Shown here: piece by piece, positions 28,271 through 41,206 of the stretch
Layout: the number at the start of each line of letters is the position of its first letter
Numbering within the stretch: the first letter of the stretch is position 1
From: a virus
Direction: 5' to 3' (one strand)
IMG/VR virus record: IMGVR_UViG_3300037140_000126
Coordinates: 32,001-96,000 of that record
DNA: 64,000 bases
The notes under the pieces: generated by a model
Seen by the model: the letters and a program-made list of their open reading frames with translations, nothing else
The model's database searches: none
Told to the model about the DNA's origin: nothing
Made by a program: the position numbers and the translations under genes

Positions 28271-28319
28271 AAAAGGTCCCCGGCATTCCCTCCCCTAGAA
28301 GCAACACCGGGGACCCTTG
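28271..28319 (-). terminator. Rho-independent terminator after the tail tube gene
   Basis: GGTCCCCGG...CCGGGGACC stem followed by TTTT on the minus strand. Confidence 0.55.
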
Positions 28320-28339: not shown

Positions 28340-29374
28340 CTAAATTGCAATATCCTGGCCAGGTTTGGCATAATATGCCGTGTAGCCCACCACGGTCTCG
28401 CCGTCGAGCGGATCATCGAAGGCCAATGCCTCCATGACACAATCCAGCTCGTAGCCCGTCAAGTCGGTTGTCCCGACGTTTTCAATCGCCCAAGCCGCTA
28501 CGTCGCGGAACTGATTGATTGAAACGTGCGGGTAGTACAGTGCAATCTGGGCTTGGTCAATCGTGTCGAGTATGAATAACCCGGACCATTCTGTGATGAA
28601 CGTGCCGCCTTCTCTCGCTGCCCAACCAGAAATCAACTGCACGTTCGACCCGGCTGGCGGTGTACCTTGTGGTGTGTTCGCAGGAACGGCAGTTGTGCCC
28701 CCGCCGCCGCCTACAAACGGTGCGTTGAGTGTGAGCACGTTACCATTGACGGCAATGATTCTCGCAACGAAGTCACTTGTCTTACGGATGTAATCCACAT
28801 CTGTGACGGCGTTTGGAAAGACAGGAACACCCGCCTCACCGATAAGCCCGTATGTTCCAAGCGTATAGTCGATATCGGCTACGATGAAGTCCCCAGCCGA
28901 GGCGCTGATCGCCGCCGCGCTAGTGACAGTGATTGACGGTGTAGCGGCCGAATAGCTGACCATTGCTGTCTTAGGGGCTCCTGAAGCAGACAGCGGGCCA
29001 GCGGTAGTTGCTGTTGAGCCATCCAGCAGGTTGATAGGATTAGTGCCCGTTGCGATCTTGAAGGCCATGCGCGACGCTTCGCGGAACTTGAATTCGAACG
29101 ACTCGCCGACTTGCCCTCTGTATTGCGCCCGGACTGCACCGCGATAACCGGAACGTACTTGGCCGATCTTTGATGCAGGCGTGATCTTGAAATCCTTGAT
29201 CCAGCCCAAATCTGTAAAGCCCGCCGGTGGGGAATACGTATTGAACGGACCACCAGTCTGCAAATCCAGCATCGTCGGGCCTACAGAAGTATTGGCGACC
29301 GACGATCCTAAGGCGGCGTTATAGGGCGCAAAGAATGCCCTATATCCGGCCCCGATCATGAGCATGTTCTTAAG
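28340..29374 (-). CDS. Major tail tube protein, exon 2
   Basis: FTDLGWIKD...GYRGAVRAQY...IALYYPHV...MEALAFDD tube-like pattern, just upstream of the chaperones; the ATG at 29365 has no RBS. Confidence 0.8.
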   Translation of the reverse strand, partial: LKNMLMIGAGYRAFFAPYNAALGSSVANTSVGPTMLDLQTGGPFNTYSPPAGFTDLGWIKDFKITPASKIGQVRSGYRGAVRAQYRGQVGESFEFKFREASRMAFKIATGTNPINLLDGSTATTAGPLSASGAPKTAMVSYSAATPSITVTSAAAISASAGDFIVADIDYTLGTYGLIGEAGVPVFPNAVTDVDYIRKTSDFVARIIAVNGNVLTLNAPFVGGGGGTTAVPANTPQGTPPAGSNVQLISGWAAREGGTFITEWSGLFILDTIDQAQIALYYPHVSINQFRDVAAWAIENVGTTDLTGYELDCVMEALAFDDPLDGETVVGYTAYYAKPGQDIAI

Positions 29375-29592
29375 CTTTGTTACAAATCAGGTTTTCTGAT
29401 TTGGGTTGGTCATTTCTGCCAACCTCTTACGGTTCTTATTCCCGTAAGCCCCGACTATTGCATCACCATTCTTGCACTCTCGGTGCCTTCTCGCTTAGTC
29501 TGTCAGCGTCCCTTTAGGGTTCGCCCTCGTTGCCATTCTCAGGGTTCGAGTCAATCAGAGAAGGTTTTACTTCCGCAAGAACGCTACGTGAT
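29375..29592 (-). ncRNA. Group I self-splicing intron (~218 nt; 224 nt if the alternative 3' splice site at 29369 is used), no internal ORF
   Basis: P1 CUUCCGU/GCGGAAG with a terminal U.G pair; P3 CCUUCUC/GAGAAGG; P7 GACUA/UAGUC; P8 CACC/GGUG; three P9-type hairpins; splicing restores the frame. Confidence 0.88.
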
Positions 29593-29628
29593 ACGGAAGG
29601 GCTGAACTAATGCCTTTGAGAGTGCCAT
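29593..29628 (-). CDS. Major tail tube protein, exon 1 (MALSKALVQPFR)
   Basis: Strong RBS TAAGGAG 9-10 nt before ATG 29628; 12 codons ending at the P1 U. Confidence 0.8.
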
Positions 29629-29721
29629 TTTAGTTAAGTCTCCTTATAGTTACGTTTGGGGCCACTTCCGGTAGACTTAACCGAATTGCCCCATGACCAA
29701 CTGTCCTGGCCATCAGCTTAA

Positions 29722-30447
29722 CTATTGGCACTCTTCTTCACATGCTTCCAACGAAGTCAGAATTCTAAACTCAATGTCCGCAGATTTACAAAACGCTCTT
29801 GCGGCCCTAAACTTGGCTTGATTCTTTGGGTCCTTGAGAAAGGCGACTGGTTTGATTTCTTCCAGTATATGCGTGCCATCTGCGTAGCAAATCAGCAAAT
29901 CGGGAAGGTAATAATGCGCCTTGCCATTCAAACTGTATGGAATCCGTACAGGTGTGCGTCTATAACTTGACACTTCGTTAGAAAGTTCAAGCACACGCAT
30001 ACGAGCTAACTCCCAAGAACAGTCGTAATGCATAGTCCTGTGATTCTTTTTGGAGTAGAAGTCACCGTGCTTACCACGGTTTACACGAGTTTTCCAGTAA
30101 CGCTCTGTTCCATCAGCGTCCTTAATAAAGTTACGAATGTTTTGTGCGGGGTCTAAACGCCCGTCGGCAATCGCTTCACGGACACCAGCACTATTCCTCT
30201 CTCGGTGAACGTGGCACACCTTCTTGCCCTTAGGCCATCCCATGTGTATATTATGCTCAAGATTATATGCACGTAGCCGCTTACCATTCTCGACTTTAGC
30301 TTTTGCACCTTCCGCCGTGAAAAGACGAGGGCCACACGAATCTTTCACACCTTTCGGTCGTCCAGCAGCGCTCATATCACGCTTCGCGTAACGCCCATCG
30401 CGCCACGCTTTGCGGAGCTTTGCTTTCTTTTGTTCAGGGCATTTCAT
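29722..30447 (-). CDS. NUMOD3-like DNA-binding region fused to a TnsA/T4-gp4-like PD-(D/E)XK endonuclease
   Basis: YDCSWE...VRIPY...HYYLPDLLICY...LEEIKP; basic N-terminus with GRPKG and GWPKGKK repeats. Confidence 0.75.
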   Translation of the reverse strand: MKCPEQKKAKLRKAWRDGRYAKRDMSAAGRPKGVKDSCGPRLFTAEGAKAKVENGKRLRAYNLEHNIHMGWPKGKKVCHVHRERNSAGVREAIADGRLDPAQNIRNFIKDADGTERYWKTRVNRGKHGDFYSKKNHRTMHYDCSWELARMRVLELSNEVSSYRRTPVRIPYSLNGKAHYYLPDLLICYADGTHILEEIKPVAFLKDPKNQAKFRAARAFCKSADIEFRILTSLEACEEECQ

Positions 30448-30987: not shown

Positions 30988-31458
30988 TCAGTAAATCCTT
31001 CTTACCATGAGTTGCTGCAAGCCCGCATATCGCTCTGCACCGATAATCTTGATAACGTCAAGCTCCATGTCTTCCTCGGGTGCTTTCATACGCAGCAGCA
31101 TCATCAGCCACATGTACCACCACAACTTTGCAGGCTGCATACTGTCGAACGATTCACACGCAAACGTGAACGTAGCGCCGAATGCGTCTTTCGGTTCAAA
31201 CTTGGCCATCGACAGGCACGCGTCCTTGAAGTTTGTTCTGTAGCAACGCGTCCCAACAAGAGATGCATTGCGTAGATTCGCACCTTCAAAGTTCGCATAG
31301 CTCAAATCCGCATCATCGAAGTTCGCCCCAATTAAACTGGCACAGCGAAAATCAGCATGATCGAGTTTCTGTCCGGAGAAATTGCGGTTCGCCAGTTTCT
31401 TATTATAAAAGTCTTTCCCCACCCTGTCGGCACGTACAGTTGGCATCGTGTTCCCCAT
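30988..31458 (-). CDS. Pentapeptide repeat protein
   Basis: ANRNF SGQKL DHADF RCASL IGANF DDADL SYANF EGANL RNASL repeats. Confidence 0.9.
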   Translation of the reverse strand: MGNTMPTVRADRVGKDFYNKKLANRNFSGQKLDHADFRCASLIGANFDDADLSYANFEGANLRNASLVGTRCYRTNFKDACLSMAKFEPKDAFGATFTFACESFDSMQPAKLWWYMWLMMLLRMKAPEEDMELDVIKIIGAERYAGLQQLMVRRIY

Positions 31459-37166: not shown

Positions 37167-40100
37167 TTACTGATATGAACCTGTATCGCCACCACTGCGG
37201 GGATACTTTCCGCGCTTGCCCTTCTGTATTAGCTTCTGTTCGCCAGGCATGTACGCGCTATTAGAATCATTAGGACGAGAGAAACCCCTATAACGATCAT
37301 TGAGGTATTGCTCCACAACCGTGGGCTTGCGCAGGGACTCTTGGAACTTCTTGACCTGTCCGCGCTCGTCGGCCTTACTAACTTTCTCGGGCTCTTCTTC
37401 ACCATCTTGCTCATCCTTTTCTACTTGCTCGAAAAACTCTTTCAGTTCGTCGTTCAGTTGTTCGAGAACACCGGGCTGCTGTGTCTCCATTTGTTGACCA
37501 AGTTCACCCGTCTCAGGCAGCATACCCATCTCTTGGAAATACTGAACTTCTTCAGGTGTCATCTGCTGAATATCATCAGAGCTGAATTCCCCCTGCCCAA
37601 TCAAGCTGCCCTGGAAGCCACGCATACCGCCAGAATTTGCCGATGCTGTCGGAGACATTGCCCCAGCGCCACCCGTAGGCGGCAAACCGGAACTTACGCC
37701 CATACCGCCGCCACCGTTTCCACCTGCTCCAGCGCCACCACCCTGAGGCATTGACTTCGCTCTTGCTAGAGCCATCGCTTCTTGGATCAGAATATTCATC
37801 ATGCCGAATGTCAGCTTGCCCCAGCCATCGGGAAGCGGCGGCTTACCATCAGACTCGCGCATTTCATCCGGCAGCAGTGCATTGCTCTGATACTGGCGCT
37901 GCTGGATTTGAACTTTCGTAAGCGCATCGGGATCGTCCAGACCCTTAAAGACGAATTGCAAATCTTTCCAGCCTAGAAAGCCGTGTAAGAGTTCCCGCGT
38001 GAACGCTTCCATCAACCGTGTCGCCATTGGCACGACAGCGGCCTTGAAATCGGAAATCGACATTATTAAGCCGGTCGATCTATTGACATCCTTTTCCAAA
38101 CCAAGACTGAACGGGGATAGATCAAATCCGTTCGCAGTACAACGGATCAACATTTCCTGCCATTCGAGCAGCAAGTCTTGAATCAGGACAGACTGCACCG
38201 GGATGACCTCGGGCTTTTTCATGCCCGCAATTAGGCTGACTTTCGCCTGACCTTCTAGCTCATTCTGAATGTGCCTGCGCACCGTCTGGATGTGCGCTTG
38301 ATTTTGTGGCTGTTCCCACCACAGGAACGTCTTATGCACTTGATCGGAGCCCGCTTTACTGGCCATGTCCTGTACGCCGAGTAGCGCATTGACCGTATTG
38401 AAAGTAACTTCAAGCTTGCCTAAGCCAAAAGGAGTATTTGCCCTTACATTGTCCCGGATATAGACCAGTTCATCGGCTAGGAATGCGACAACGCCGCGCT
38501 CCCCTTTGAGTCCCGTCATTTGCGCGAAGCGTGGTCGTTCCGTGTTGCTTTCCGACCAGTCGGCATAGATGCGGATTGTAGAACCATCCACAGACCACAT
38601 TTTCATTGGGCGTTTATAGTAGGGCGTCATGCGAGGCTCAATGCAACCATAGCCACCGATGATCGTATCTTCCAAAACCGCTTCAGAGAACGTCCGAAAC
38701 GAGTCCACATTATTAGGATGTTCAAAACAATTCTTGACGATACGAATTCTCTTCTCCCGTTCTTTCGGGTCGCCCTCATTCTCCATGTCCGGCATAGCCT
38801 CAATGTCCCATTTCAGTTGAAGCACAGCATTCTTAATTAGGTTGATTGCCCGACGAGGAATTGGGGTTTCACTGAACCTACGGAGATTATAGGGGGTTTG
38901 ACCACACCATGCGGCCTTGCCATTACGACGAACATAGATAACCCCATCTGGAACGCCGACGCAGTAGACCTTACCTGAATACTCCTGTACCTCCACATGC
39001 CTTAAACCCGACCACTTGAGGAGATTTTCATAGACACAATAAAATGGCGCACGCATTCTGCCACTAGCCATTTTCTTTGACGGTCTGGTATGAAGCGTTC
39101 CTCCTGTTCCGAGCTTAATCAGAATTTCCTGAATGTCGTTTGCAAGCCGCTGACTTGCGGTCGCAAACATTCGTGTTCGTTGAAACGATCCATCGCCAAT
39201 CCAAAACCAGTGTAGCAAGATTTTGAGATACTTTGGCGGAAGATTTTTTACCCAAGTGGGCACATACTTTGTATAAGTATTGCCAAGCGGATGTAGCTTC
39301 TCATGCAGGGCTTTACTCTGAATGCGGAAACCGCGCTTACGCAATTGGACATGGAATGGCAAACGCCCAAGCAACTCGGCAATTGCTGTATAGCTTTCAC
39401 TCTTGCGCTCCTGTGCTATGCCAACAGTCCACATCATCCCTACAGAACGATTAAATTCTTGGTTTGATCCATCGGCAGCGGCGGCAATTGCTTGAACATA
39501 CAAAGGCCTAGAATCCACGTCCGCATCTTTCTCCATACCAGCAAATGCAGATTCACAGTGGCCCTCAGCTAGATACAGTCCTAGAAAGGCAACCCAATCC
39601 TCAAGCAGAACGGTGTAATCTTCCGGGTGACGACCGCCCTTGTCGCTGCATCGTTCAGTCTTAATAGTTACAGATTCAAACGGAATCTTCCCAATCCATG
39701 CTTTAGAAGTAAGGGGAACCTCGAATCGTACAAACCCATGGCCGTCCCCATTTGCTATGTGCTCTGCTACATCCTTCGCAAATTGAAACCCTTTTTTGTC
39801 TTTGGCAAATGCACCACTATTTCCTTTCGGTCCTGCCCAACGAACAGATCGGCCATACATGCGATGGTGTGGCGTAACCAAAAAGTCCAAGCACTTGCCA
39901 GTCAGGTGCACCATCGGGCCAGAGTAATCAACAACCATAAATTTCTTGGCGTGCTGCCAGTGAATCTCACCATTCTTACTACGCGTAGCATATAAATCAT
40001 CTGGACGAGCTTCTGGCCATGGCACCCAGCCTCGCTTTGTGAGTACCTGTGTATCGGCAGAGAAGCAATTTTTCAAAATCGGTTGGTTCAACCTATGGAG

Positions 40101-40561: not shown

Positions 40562-41206
40562 TCACTCATCGAAGTCTACCTCACGCTTGACTGGATACTG
40601 AATTGTTGGCTTGCGGGGCTTTTCTTTCGGCGCATCTTTCGAAGCCCGAATCTTCTGAAGCACATCATCAGGAATTGGCACTCCCGGACTGTTAGCATCA
40701 GGCCAGTAATATGGAGGCACATGAATCACGGTACCACTCACCGCATTTAGATTCGTCACTAGAGCACTTGGAGGGGGCAGCAAATCGGATTCAACTACAG
40801 GTAAGACGTGATCGAAGTAGGACATAAGATTACCAGCGTCATCGGGCATAGCCACACCACGAAGATAAACATCATCACAGTCTTTGTTGCACGACACAGT
40901 GTAACAATTTTCCAATAGAATCGACTTATATTTGAAAGTGTCTCCCCCCGCAACCAAAAGAAGTTGTAGCTTGCTGTATGGAAGGCTAAGCAAGTTGTTT
41001 CTGTCTTGCGTGTGCACGCCAATAAGTTTGCCGCACCATGCAATTTGTTTCAATCCAGAGGTATACTGTGCACGGACTGCACCACGGTAGCCAACACGAA
41101 CTTCACGAATGTCTTGCTGGATTGTCACATCTGCCAGCGTAGCAATGACAGAGCGTTCTGGCCCTGTCACGAGATAGCCTAGTGAAGAATTACTCTCTGA
41201 AGACAC
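40562..41206 (-). CDS. Tail tube protein paralog
   Basis: Shares GYRGAVRAQY exactly with the major tail tube protein. Confidence 0.6.
   Translation of the reverse strand: MSSESNSSLGYLVTGPERSVIATLADVTIQQDIREVRVGYRGAVRAQYTSGLKQIAWCGKLIGVHTQDRNNLLSLPYSKLQLLLVAGGDTFKYKSILLENCYTVSCNKDCDDVYLRGVAMPDDAGNLMSYFDHVLPVVESDLLPPPSALVTNLNAVSGTVIHVPPYYWPDANSPGVPIPDDVLQKIRASKDAPKEKPRKPTIQYPVKREVDFDE

What the first reader, a model, noticed from the sequence alone, without database searches (positions are those of the whole stretch)
28340..29628. Compact group I intron splits the major tail tube gene after codon 12
Seen: RBS TAAGGAG, ATG 29628, exon 1 MALSKALVQPFR ending ...CUUCCGU, which pairs with GCGGAAG in the intron (P1, U.G at the splice site). 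The core has P3 CCUUCUC/GAGAAGG, P4 CUCG/CGAG, P6a CCCUAAAGGG, P7 GACUA/UAGUC and P8 CACC/GGUG, followed by hairpins CUUACGG/CCGUAAG, GGUUGG/CCAACC and CAAAUCAG/CUGAUUUG. Two in-frame terminal Gs are possible (29375 gives R-LKNML; 29369 gives R-NML), and the IGS GCGUUCUU can pair with the 3' exon AAGAAC (P10). Known: phage group I introns are mostly in DNA-metabolism genes; structural-gene cases are uncommon. At ~220 nt this is near the size of the smallest natural ones. Inference: production of an abundant virion protein depends on self-splicing, which could act as a timing control.
Basis: partly seen in the sequence, partly recalled or inferred. Interest (0 to 1): 0.85.

Follow-up and report, generated by a model that had tools for sequence, protein, structure and literature searches.

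The report
Group I intron in tail-tube gene
A 221-base self-splicing-type (group I) intron really does split this uncultured phage's tail-tube gene after codon 12, a known kind of arrangement, but its last base is U instead of the near-universal G, yet an environmental RNA library holds the exactly joined message.

Summary
Exon 1 (29628-29593, MALSKALVQPFR), a 221-nt ORF-less intron (29592-29372) and exon 2 (29371-28340) lie on the minus strand. More than 100 homologs start MALSKALVQPFRKN..., so the true junction is CGU|AAG (355 aa).

Nine related introns in the same gene support the group I fold: 99.5% of cells pair and 27 of 45 pairs show compensatory changes, including the P3/P7 pseudoknot. 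P1 is complementary in all ten, and P10 is contiguous with P1 in most of them. Rfam RF00028 misses the whole family, although the core motif occurs in at least 119 IMG/VR contigs.

A peat metatranscriptome contig joins the exons exactly (skip 221, no mismatch). The omega position is U29372, whereas all nine relatives have G. This is the one unusual point, and it needs RT-PCR.

The fold and gene order support a siphophage tail-tube protein. The upstream TnsA-like nuclease (29722-30447) is 48% identical to nucleases encoded inside related introns, which fits a free-standing homing endonuclease.

Related phages carry the intron at three sites within 6 nt. Tail-tube introns are known from phage Twort, and this scan has found them before on other DNA.

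The parts
29640..29646 (-). Shine-Dalgarno TAAGGAG of the tail-tube gene
   Evidence: Read directly; lies 11 nt upstream of ATG 29628.
29593..29628 (-). Exon 1, 12 codons, MALSKALVQPFR; the last 7 nt CUUCCGU form the 5' strand of P1
   Evidence: homologs start MALSKALVQPFRKN; every codon difference between WIN, L083 and L084 is synonymous (5/0, 5/0, 8/0).
29372..29592 (-). ORF-less group I intron, 221 nt (P1 IGS, P3-P9.2, UAACAA tail); last base U29372
   Evidence: Homolog junction; covariation; model R1 scores 110.9 bits, the only copy in the 125-kb genome; RNA contig skips exactly this length.
29570..29582 (-). Internal guide: GUUCUU (P10 strand, 29582-29577) directly followed by GCGGAAG (P1 strand, 29576-29570)
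   Evidence: P1 7/7 bp with U.G at the splice site; P10 6 contiguous bp with AAGAAC, the first bases of exon 2.
29453..29500 (-). Catalytic core: P7 5' GACUA (29500-29496), J7/3, P3' GAGAAGG (29492-29486), P8 (29485-29464), J8/7 AUGCAA, P7' UAGUC (29457-29453)
   Evidence: the P7 pseudoknot is invariant, and an extra pair beyond a bulged base varies as CG/AU/GC. P3 and P8 covary.
29383..29448 (-). Peripheral hairpins P9 (29448-29426), P9.1 with conserved loop CAGAAAUGA (29424-29404), P9.2 (29403-29383)
   Evidence: P9 and P9.1: 12 of 15 pairs have compensatory changes. P9.2 is seen in the single-sequence fold.
28340..29371 (-). Exon 2 (KNMLMIGAGYR... to stop TAG 28342-28340); with exon 1 it encodes a 355-aa tail-tube protein
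   Evidence: AF2 model pLDDT 85.5. Top Foldseek hits are siphophage tail tube / major tail proteins.
29722..30447 (-). Free-standing TnsA-N-like PD-(D/E)XK nuclease gene (241 aa), a candidate homing endonuclease
   Evidence: PF08722 at 5e-16. 48% identity (8e-71) to the intron-encoded ORF of L089 and 40% to that of L030. Absent from the same-site relatives L083 and L084.
28271..28316 (-). Terminator-like hairpin GGGUCCCCGG ... CCGGGGACC followed by UUUU, after the tube gene
   Evidence: Read by eye. Not reported by the consensus scan, probably because the loop is long.

Best explanation
This is a genuine, functional, ORF-less group I intron of 221 nt (29592-29372, minus strand) in the major tail-tube gene of an uncultured 125-kb siphovirus-like phage. 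The guide GCGGAAG pairs with the end of exon 1 (CUUCCGU, with U.G at the cleavage site). A guanosine cofactor would cleave after U29593 (inferred from the family mechanism). The adjoining guide segment GUUCUU then holds the first six bases of exon 2 (AAGAAC, P10), and the exons are joined CGU|AAG. That restores the conserved N-terminus MALSKALVQPFR-KNMLMIGAG of a 355-aa tube protein. Without splicing, translation stops two codons into the intron. The intron belongs to a large environmental phage intron family that Rfam RF00028 does not detect. Related phages carry it at three sites within 6 nt of this gene, each with a guide sequence matched to its own site. The adjacent TnsA-like nuclease is most likely a free-standing homing endonuclease of the same family that sits inside some of these introns (collaborative homing, inferred). 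The unusual feature is that the base at the omega position is U, not G. My estimates are about 0.9 that the intron is real and spliced, and about 0.55 that the omega-U form itself is the one ligated at this exact junction.
For: Interrupted gene: most of 120 homologs start MALSKALVQPFRKN(M/T)LLIGAG, while the window ORF starts MLMIGAG.

Exon 1 is under purifying selection in intron-bearing genomes, with only synonymous changes.

Nine homologous introns in the same gene all restore QPF/YRKN in frame.

Structure: 39 nested pairs plus the P7 pseudoknot, 99.5% of cells paired, 27 of 45 pairs compensatory, 0 of 500 shuffles as good, and 30-42% paired in the slid controls.

P1 is 6-7 of 7 bp in all ten introns and the IGS follows the exon. 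For example, CCC to CCA in L084 is matched by GCGGAAG to GCGGAAU. P10 lies directly next to P1 and has 6 bp in the window.

RNA: metatranscriptome run X1 holds a 243-nt contig (depth 8.5, no mismatch) that joins 29370|29592 and skips 221 nt, with a 2-nt placement ambiguity. This is exactly CCGU-AAGAAC. The same library also has the unspliced branch and the shared upstream contig.

No intron-less form of this phage is on record. The protein cluster holds only 339, 341 and 289-aa forms on 10 contigs. The nearest intron-less relative, L064, is only 81% identical in DNA.

Tail tube: AF2 pLDDT 85.5, and Foldseek gives 9n71_A tail tube at 1.7e-10, plus Chi, YSD1 and JBD30. The gene lies two genes upstream of a 2436-aa ORF that by size and position could be the tape measure, though PHROGs names no family for it.

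Nuclease.
Against: Rfam RF00028 gives no hit, even at E<=10, for the window or 29 relatives. It does detect the Twort, T4 and SPO1 introns.

My family model R1 does not find those classical introns.

The omega base is U, where all nine same-gene relatives have G. In model group I introns the terminal G is needed for the second step (established knowledge).

The RNA evidence is a single low-depth Logan contig with only 30 nt on the exon 1 side. A transcript or DNA of an intron-less variant, or a strain with G at omega, would give the same joint. X1 does not cover position 29372 in unspliced form.

Self-splicing itself has not been shown.
Confidence: 0.85

Rival explanations
1. The intron is real, but it splices at a neighbouring G. 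Using G29375 as omega would add one Leu (FR-L-KNML). Using G29369 would remove Lys (FR-NML). On this reading, the exact-junction RNA contig comes from an intron-less or omega-G variant.
For: Both Gs are in frame. The terminal G is the rule in group I chemistry, and all nine relatives use G. Cryptic nearby Gs are used when omega-G is mutated in model introns (from memory, not checked here). The RNA contig cannot exclude a variant allele.
Against: No contig with a 218- or 224-nt skip was seen; only the 221-nt skip. The distance from FR to GAG is fixed in all homologs. P10 AAGAAC/GUUCUU lies directly next to P1. The tail after UAACAA is 4-5 nt in the nine relatives and 3-7 nt in the wider family. 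It would be 2 or 8 nt here.
Confidence: 0.1
2. The omega G-to-U change has killed exon ligation. The intron is a relic and the tube protein is made from Met 29365 without the first 14 residues.
For: Gene callers start the protein at MLMIGAG or MIGAG. The omega position is mutated.
Against: There is no SD before ATG 29365, but a strong one before ATG 29628. Exon 1 is kept intact with only synonymous differences. LVQPFRKN is among the best conserved segments of the family. The joined RNA exists. The phage was assembled identically from at least 4 independent runs.
Confidence: 0.04
3. It is not a group I ribozyme but some other intervening element, such as a translational bypass element or a protein-dependent splicing substrate.
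For: RF00028 and R1 give no cross-match between this family and classical introns. J3/4 is unusually long (7 nt) and there is no P2.
Against: The full canonical order P1-P3-P4-P5-P6-P7-P3'-P8-P7'-P9 is present, with the P3/P7 pseudoknot and a bulged P7. U.G is at the 5' site, omega-G occurs in relatives, and P10 is present. All are supported by covariation. The gap is removed at RNA level. True group I introns also fall below the RF00028 cut-off (T4 at 40 and 36 bits, SPO1 at 26 bits).
Confidence: 0.02

Closest known systems
Group I introns of Staphylococcus phage Twort orf142 (tail tube gene, three ORF-less introns; Landthaler & Shub 1999, as cited in PMC11878797)
   Same: A small ORF-less group I intron inside a phage tail-tube gene, so an abundant virion protein depends on RNA splicing.
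   Different: The Twort introns score 64-101 bits on RF00028, whereas this family scores nothing. The host proteins are unrelated (myovirus tube versus a siphovirus-type 355-aa tube). There is a single intron at codon 12, no P2, no P7.1/7.2, and omega is U.
Collaborative homing pairs: an ORF-less intron plus a free-standing endonuclease that targets the insertion site (two phage systems reviewed in PMC3984707)
   Same: An ORF-less intron with a free-standing nuclease gene directly upstream. Homologs of the same nuclease occur inside related introns (L030, L089).
   Different: The nuclease is TnsA-N-like PD-(D/E)XK. Its cleavage site is untested. TnsA-like genes also lie upstream of intron-less tube genes (L059, L056, L057).
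Hexacoral mitochondrial ND5-717 group I intron with omega-A (PMC8146996)
   Same: A natural group I intron whose last nucleotide is not G, yet the exons are ligated in vivo.
   Different: That is an organellar, obligatory intron with a giant P8 insert, it has A rather than U, and the feature is fixed across a lineage. Here a compact phage intron has U, while its nearest relatives still have G.
Compact bacterial group I introns of about 200-250 nt (for example the Azoarcus pre-tRNA-Ile intron; from memory for its size)
   Same: Minimal size. The window intron is 221 nt and relatives are 197-203 nt.
   Different: It lies in a protein-coding phage gene. There is no P2, and there are three 3' hairpins with a conserved P9.1 loop. 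Subgroup not assigned.

Membership tests
Group I intron | P1: the internal guide pairs with the end of the 5' exon, with U.G at the cleavage site | tested here: met
   7/7 bp in the window and 6-7/7 in nine relatives. The IGS changes with the exon at three insertion sites, and all ten have U.G at the cleavage site.
Group I intron | Canonical core P3-P4-P5-P6-P7-P3'-P8-P7' with the P3/P7 pseudoknot | tested here: met
   99.5% of cells paired, 27 of 45 pairs compensatory, slid controls 30-42%. P7 has a bulged base and one covarying pair (CG/AU/GC).
Group I intron | Terminal guanosine (omega-G) directly before the 3' exon | tested here: not met
   The window ends ...AAAGCUU|AAGAAC, with U29372. 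All nine relatives end in G. None of the three equivalent placements of the RNA joint has G as the last intron base. The ND5-717 intron is a natural non-G precedent (PMC8146996).
Group I intron | P10: guide segment 5' of the P1 strand pairs with the start of the 3' exon | tested here: met
   GUUCUU/AAGAAC, 6 contiguous bp next to P1. Seven of the nine relatives have 3-8 contiguous bp next to P1; in L048 and L051 only the first pair is contiguous.
Group I intron | Precise excision and exon ligation at RNA level | tested here: met
   an RNA-library contig skips exactly 221 nt, and the unspliced branch is in the same run. Caveats: one contig, and a variant allele is not excluded.
Group I intron | Guanosine-dependent self-splicing in vitro | not testable with these tools
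   Needs transcription of 29700-29300 with GTP and Mg2+.
Group I intron | Match to Rfam RF00028 (gathering score 50 bits) | tested here: not met
   No hit at E<=10 for the window. None for 10 same-gene loci. Nothing at the gathering score for 20 family loci. Positive control: Twort and T4 reach up to 105 bits, but T4 introns at 40 and 36 bits and SPO1 at 26 bits also fail the cut-off.
Free-standing homing endonuclease / collaborative homing | Nuclease gene next to an ORF-less intron and homologous to intron-encoded nucleases | tested here: met
   The same arrangement occurs in a 77%-identical relative.
Free-standing homing endonuclease / collaborative homing | The nuclease cuts the intron-less allele at or near the insertion site; the intron-bearing allele is immune | not testable with these tools
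   Needs a cleavage assay on intron-less sequence, for example an L064-type junction.
PD-(D/E)XK (TnsA N-terminal-like) nuclease | Family profile match and conserved D...E-x-K catalytic motif | tested here: met
   PF08722 at 5.3e-16, 59 bits against a cut-off of 26.5. The PD...LEEIKP segment is conserved in the pairwise alignment.
Siphophage tail tube (major tail) protein | Tail-tube fold | tested here: met
   Model pLDDT 85.5, pTM 0.82. The ten highest-ranked PDB hits are tail tube or major tail structures or phage tail/neck/connector assemblies (E 1.7e-10 to 1e-4); 14 hits in all have E<=0.001. Many BFVD hits are labelled major tail protein. TM-scores are modest (0.35-0.5) because of an inserted domain.
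Siphophage tail tube (major tail) protein | Sequence-family membership (Pfam / PHROGs) | tested here: not met
   No Pfam or PHROG hit for the protein or for 38 relatives. The Atlas gives only a lead to Phage_TTP_17 at 0.86.

The most novel reading that the evidence does not exclude
This would be a natural bacteriophage group I intron whose terminal nucleotide is U rather than G, yet which ligates its exons at the canonical position in vivo. The 3' splice site would be set by a strong 6-bp P10 contiguous with P1 (and perhaps P9.0), not by docking of omega-G. It would be the first bacterial or phage exception to the omega-G rule. Its closest relatives (L083, L084) differ by having G at that position, which makes a ready natural comparison.
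Probability: 0.5. Interest if true: 0.75.

Novelty: new member of a known kind. Interest (0 to 1): 0.5.

Why it matters
Practical point: gene callers truncate this essential virion gene (339-341 aa instead of 355). The standard Rfam model is blind to the whole intron family, although the family's motif occurs in at least 119 IMG/VR contigs. There the nearest downstream ORFs include portal, capsid, dUTPase and ribonucleotide reductase genes, so phage annotation pipelines miss these introns systematically.

Biological points: the locus gives a compact natural series in one gene. The same intron sits at three sites within 6 nt with retargeted guide sequences. The same nuclease family is absent, adjacent, or inside the intron. 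This bears on how introns move to new sites and how introns and homing endonucleases come together.

The omega-U allele, with a joined transcript seen in a metatranscriptome, offers a simple bench test of how strictly exon ligation needs the terminal G.

Tried and rejected
- Rfam cmscan of the window at gathering score, of 29250-29750 at E<=10, and of 30 related loci gave nothing relevant. RF00028 on the whole 125-kb genome also gave nothing.
- Family model R1 against the Twort, T4 and SPO1 genomes gave only one 18-bit, E=0.24 hit in T4, taken as chance. No formal sequence link to classical introns was obtained.
- blastn ('distant' mode) of the intron against 50,697 deposited phage genomes found no match.
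- The first AF2 model, from 23 close homologs, was unusable (pLDDT 52.6). It was replaced by a model from a more diverse alignment.
- Pfam and PHROGs gave nothing for the tube protein or for most neighbouring genes.
- RNA runs X3 and X4 laid nothing, and X1 does not cover 29371-29525. No conclusion is drawn from these gaps.
- A search of short proteins for a joined-form fragment identical to this phage found none. The best, P0254, is a 93%-identical relative in joined form.
- Translational bypassing and a group II intron were considered and rejected, because the RNA-level skip and the covarying group I core explain the gap.

Full report
**Observation.** On the minus strand, a strong SD (TAAGGAG, 29646-29640) precedes ATG 29628. 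The frame reads MALSKALVQPFR and then stops two codons later (ATC ACG TAG). A 341-aa ORF starts at ATG 29365 with no SD.

**The gene is interrupted, and where.** A search of 5.8 billion proteins found 487 relatives. Most of the 120 listed begin MALSKALVQPFRKN(M/T)LLIGAG(Y/W)R, whereas the window ORF begins MLMIGAGYR. Metagenome loci confirm that most relatives are uninterrupted. One of them, L064, reads MALSKALVQPFRKNMLMIGAGY, exactly what a CGU|AAG junction would give here. So exon 1 is 29628-29593, the intervening sequence is 29592-29372 (221 nt), and exon 2 starts at AAG 29371. The product has 355 aa.

**Homologous introns.** Nine further introns with the same core interrupt the same gene in other uncultured phages.
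- L083 and L084 carry it at the window's site (CGT|AAG).
- L005, L008, L011 and L051 carry it five bases upstream, inside the Phe codon. L089, whose contig lacks the intron's 5' part, fits this site by its 3' end.
- L030, L039 and L048 carry it six bases upstream.
- With U at -1 and G as the last intron base, all nine restore QPF/YRKN in frame.

**Structure.** The MAFFT alignment and RNAalifold give P3, P4, P5, P6/6a, P8, P9 and P9.1.
- After adding the P7 pseudoknot, 99.5% of cells pair and 27 of 45 pairs have double compensatory changes.
- No shuffle out of 500 does as well, and sliding the partners by 1-3 columns drops pairing to 30-42%.
- P7 is invariant (GACUA/UAGUC) but is extended, past a bulged base, by a pair that varies as CG/AU/GC.
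- P1 is 6-7 of 7 bp in all ten introns, and the guide follows the exon: GCGGAAG, GCGGAAU, GCGGUUG, GGGCUGU and GUGGCUG.
- P10 lies directly 5' of the P1 strand. In the window it has six pairs with AAGAAC.
- The order P1-P3-P4-P5-P6-P7-P3'-P8-P7'-P9, the P3/P7 pseudoknot, U.G at the 5' site, omega-G in relatives, and P10 are the defining group I anatomy.

**Selection on exon 1.** Between the three same-site genomes, all 5, 5 and 8 changed codons of exon 1 are synonymous. The 12 codons are therefore translated as part of the protein.

**RNA evidence.** One metatranscriptomic run (X1, peat) holds a 243-nt Logan contig (depth 8.5, no mismatches).
- It joins 29370 to 29592 and skips 221 nt, with a 2-nt placement ambiguity. 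This is the sequence CCGU-AAGAAC.
- The same library contains the unspliced branch (29526-29621, depth 4.1) and the shared upstream contig that ends at the branch point (29592-29739).
- Run X2, of unknown kind, holds only the unspliced form.
- The joint cannot be an assembly chimera, since only 2 nt are shared.
- It could still come from an intron-less variant. However, none is known: the protein cluster holds only 339, 341 and 289-aa forms on 10 contigs. The nearest intron-less relative is 81% identical in DNA. No identical joined fragment is among the short proteins.

**The anomaly.** None of the three equivalent placements of the joint leaves G as the last intron base. They leave U29373, U29372 or A29371.
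- The window ends GUAACAAAGCUU|AAGAAC, while L083 and L084 end GUAACAAACUG| and GUAACAAGUUG|.
- The tail after UAACAA is 4-5 nt in all nine relatives, which puts U29372 at the omega position. The window's Gs would give tails of 2 or 8 nt, against 3-7 nt in the wider family.
- U at this position is identical in the window, in three other SRA assemblies (L085-L087) and in X2.
- X1 does not cover 29372 in unspliced form, so whether the omega-U RNA itself is what gets ligated remains open.
- A natural precedent for a non-G omega exists in the hexacoral mitochondrial ND5-717 intron, which has omega-A (PMC8146996).

**Rfam.** RF00028 finds nothing in the window, the genome or 30 related loci.
- As a control, it scores the three Twort orf142 introns at 64-101 bits and one T4 intron at 105 bits.
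- It leaves two other T4 introns at 40 and 36 bits and the SPO1 intron at 26 bits, all below its 50-bit cut-off.
- A covariance model of this family (R1, built from 45 cores) scores the window at 110.9 bits. This is the only copy in the genome. R1 does not detect the classical introns.
- Membership therefore rests on anatomy, covariation and the RNA joint, not on profile similarity.

**Host gene.** A model from a diverse alignment (pLDDT 85.5) matches siphophage tail tube and major tail proteins. These include Mystique 9n71_A at 1.7e-10, Chi, YSD1 and JBD30, plus many BFVD 'major tail protein' entries. The gene lies after a head-tail adaptor (PHROG match) and several small, unnamed ORFs. It lies two genes upstream of a 2436-aa ORF whose size and position fit a tape measure, although no family names it.

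**Nuclease.** ORF 29722-30447 is a TnsA-N-like PD-(D/E)XK nuclease (PF08722, 5e-16).
- It is 48% identical to the ORF inside the P8 loop of the L089 intron and 40% identical to that of L030.
- It is absent from L083 and L084.
- It is present upstream in a 77%-identical relative.
- Homologs also lie upstream of other tube genes, with and without introns.
- This fits a free-standing homing endonuclease and the collaborative-homing model (PMC3984707). Its target site is untested.

**Family breadth.** The core motif occurs in at least 119 IMG/VR contigs, and 92 of the copies are compact. By a rough downstream-ORF heuristic, the neighbouring genes include portal, capsid, dUTPase and ribonucleotide reductase genes.

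**Novelty.** A group I intron in a tail-tube gene is known from Twort (PMC11878797). This scan has found such introns repeatedly on other DNA, including a family that Rfam misses and multi-site cases beside a nuclease. The intron is a new member of a known kind. The omega-U allele with a joined transcript is the one feature worth a bench test.

Noticed in passing
There are 123 copies; 99 have the S-like motif TGCRATAGTC downstream and 92 are compact. None of 20 tested reaches RF00028. This is a large intron family unseen by Rfam.
   Followed up: partly
L115, L097, L210, L173, L130: Downstream ORFs of family members include portal (PF04860), capsid (Phage_capsid_4, P22 coat), dUTPase and ribonucleotide reductase. 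Several have Endo VII, HNH/NUMOD3 or LAGLIDADG nuclease ORFs just after the intron. The exon junctions were not mapped.
   Followed up: partly
L109, L153, L161: Three viral contigs carry two copies of the intron core motif within about 300-800 nt of each other. These are possibly multi-intron genes.
   Followed up: no
L059:1060-1461, L056:1464-1787, L057:3-173, L011:140-418, L051:1297-1608: TnsA-like nuclease homologs lie upstream of tube genes in other phages, both intron-less (L059, L056, L057) and intron-bearing (L011, L051). The 5' flank of this gene is a recurrent landing place for this nuclease family.
   Followed up: partly
window 29722-30447: The best PHROG match of the TnsA-like nuclease is phrog_218, labelled 'head closure' (2.5e-17). 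That label looks positional rather than functional. The endonuclease family phrog_15427 also matches.
   Followed up: no
L064, L003, L004 junctions: Intron-less alleles read TTC CGA AAA AAT or TTT AGA AAG AAT at the site, with no U at -1. Intron-bearing site-A alleles read TTC CGT|AAG AAC. Exon bases next to the intron therefore differ, as expected if P1/P10 pairing or co-conversion constrains them.
   Followed up: partly
window 29762-29791 (minus strand): A sigma-70-like site (TTGTAA-18-TAGAAT, 9/12) lies inside the 3' end of the nuclease ORF, upstream of the tube gene. The X1 RNA contig reaches 29739. Possibly the tube gene's own promoter.
   Followed up: no
window 30988-31458: A 156-aa ORF between the neck and tail genes carries pentapeptide repeats, according to precomputed Pfam on the identical contigs. 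It matches only unknown-function PHROGs. This is an odd component for a tail module.
   Followed up: no
window 38898-40067 and 40562-41206: Other first-stage notes report a portal intein and a second, shortened tube homolog in this window. I did not check them. If the intein is real, the phage carries both an intein and an intron in virion genes.
   Followed up: no
window 29404-29424 (P9.1): The P9.1 stem covaries freely, while most of its loop (CAGAAAUG) is invariant in the nine aligned introns. This suggests a tertiary contact whose partner I did not identify.
   Followed up: no
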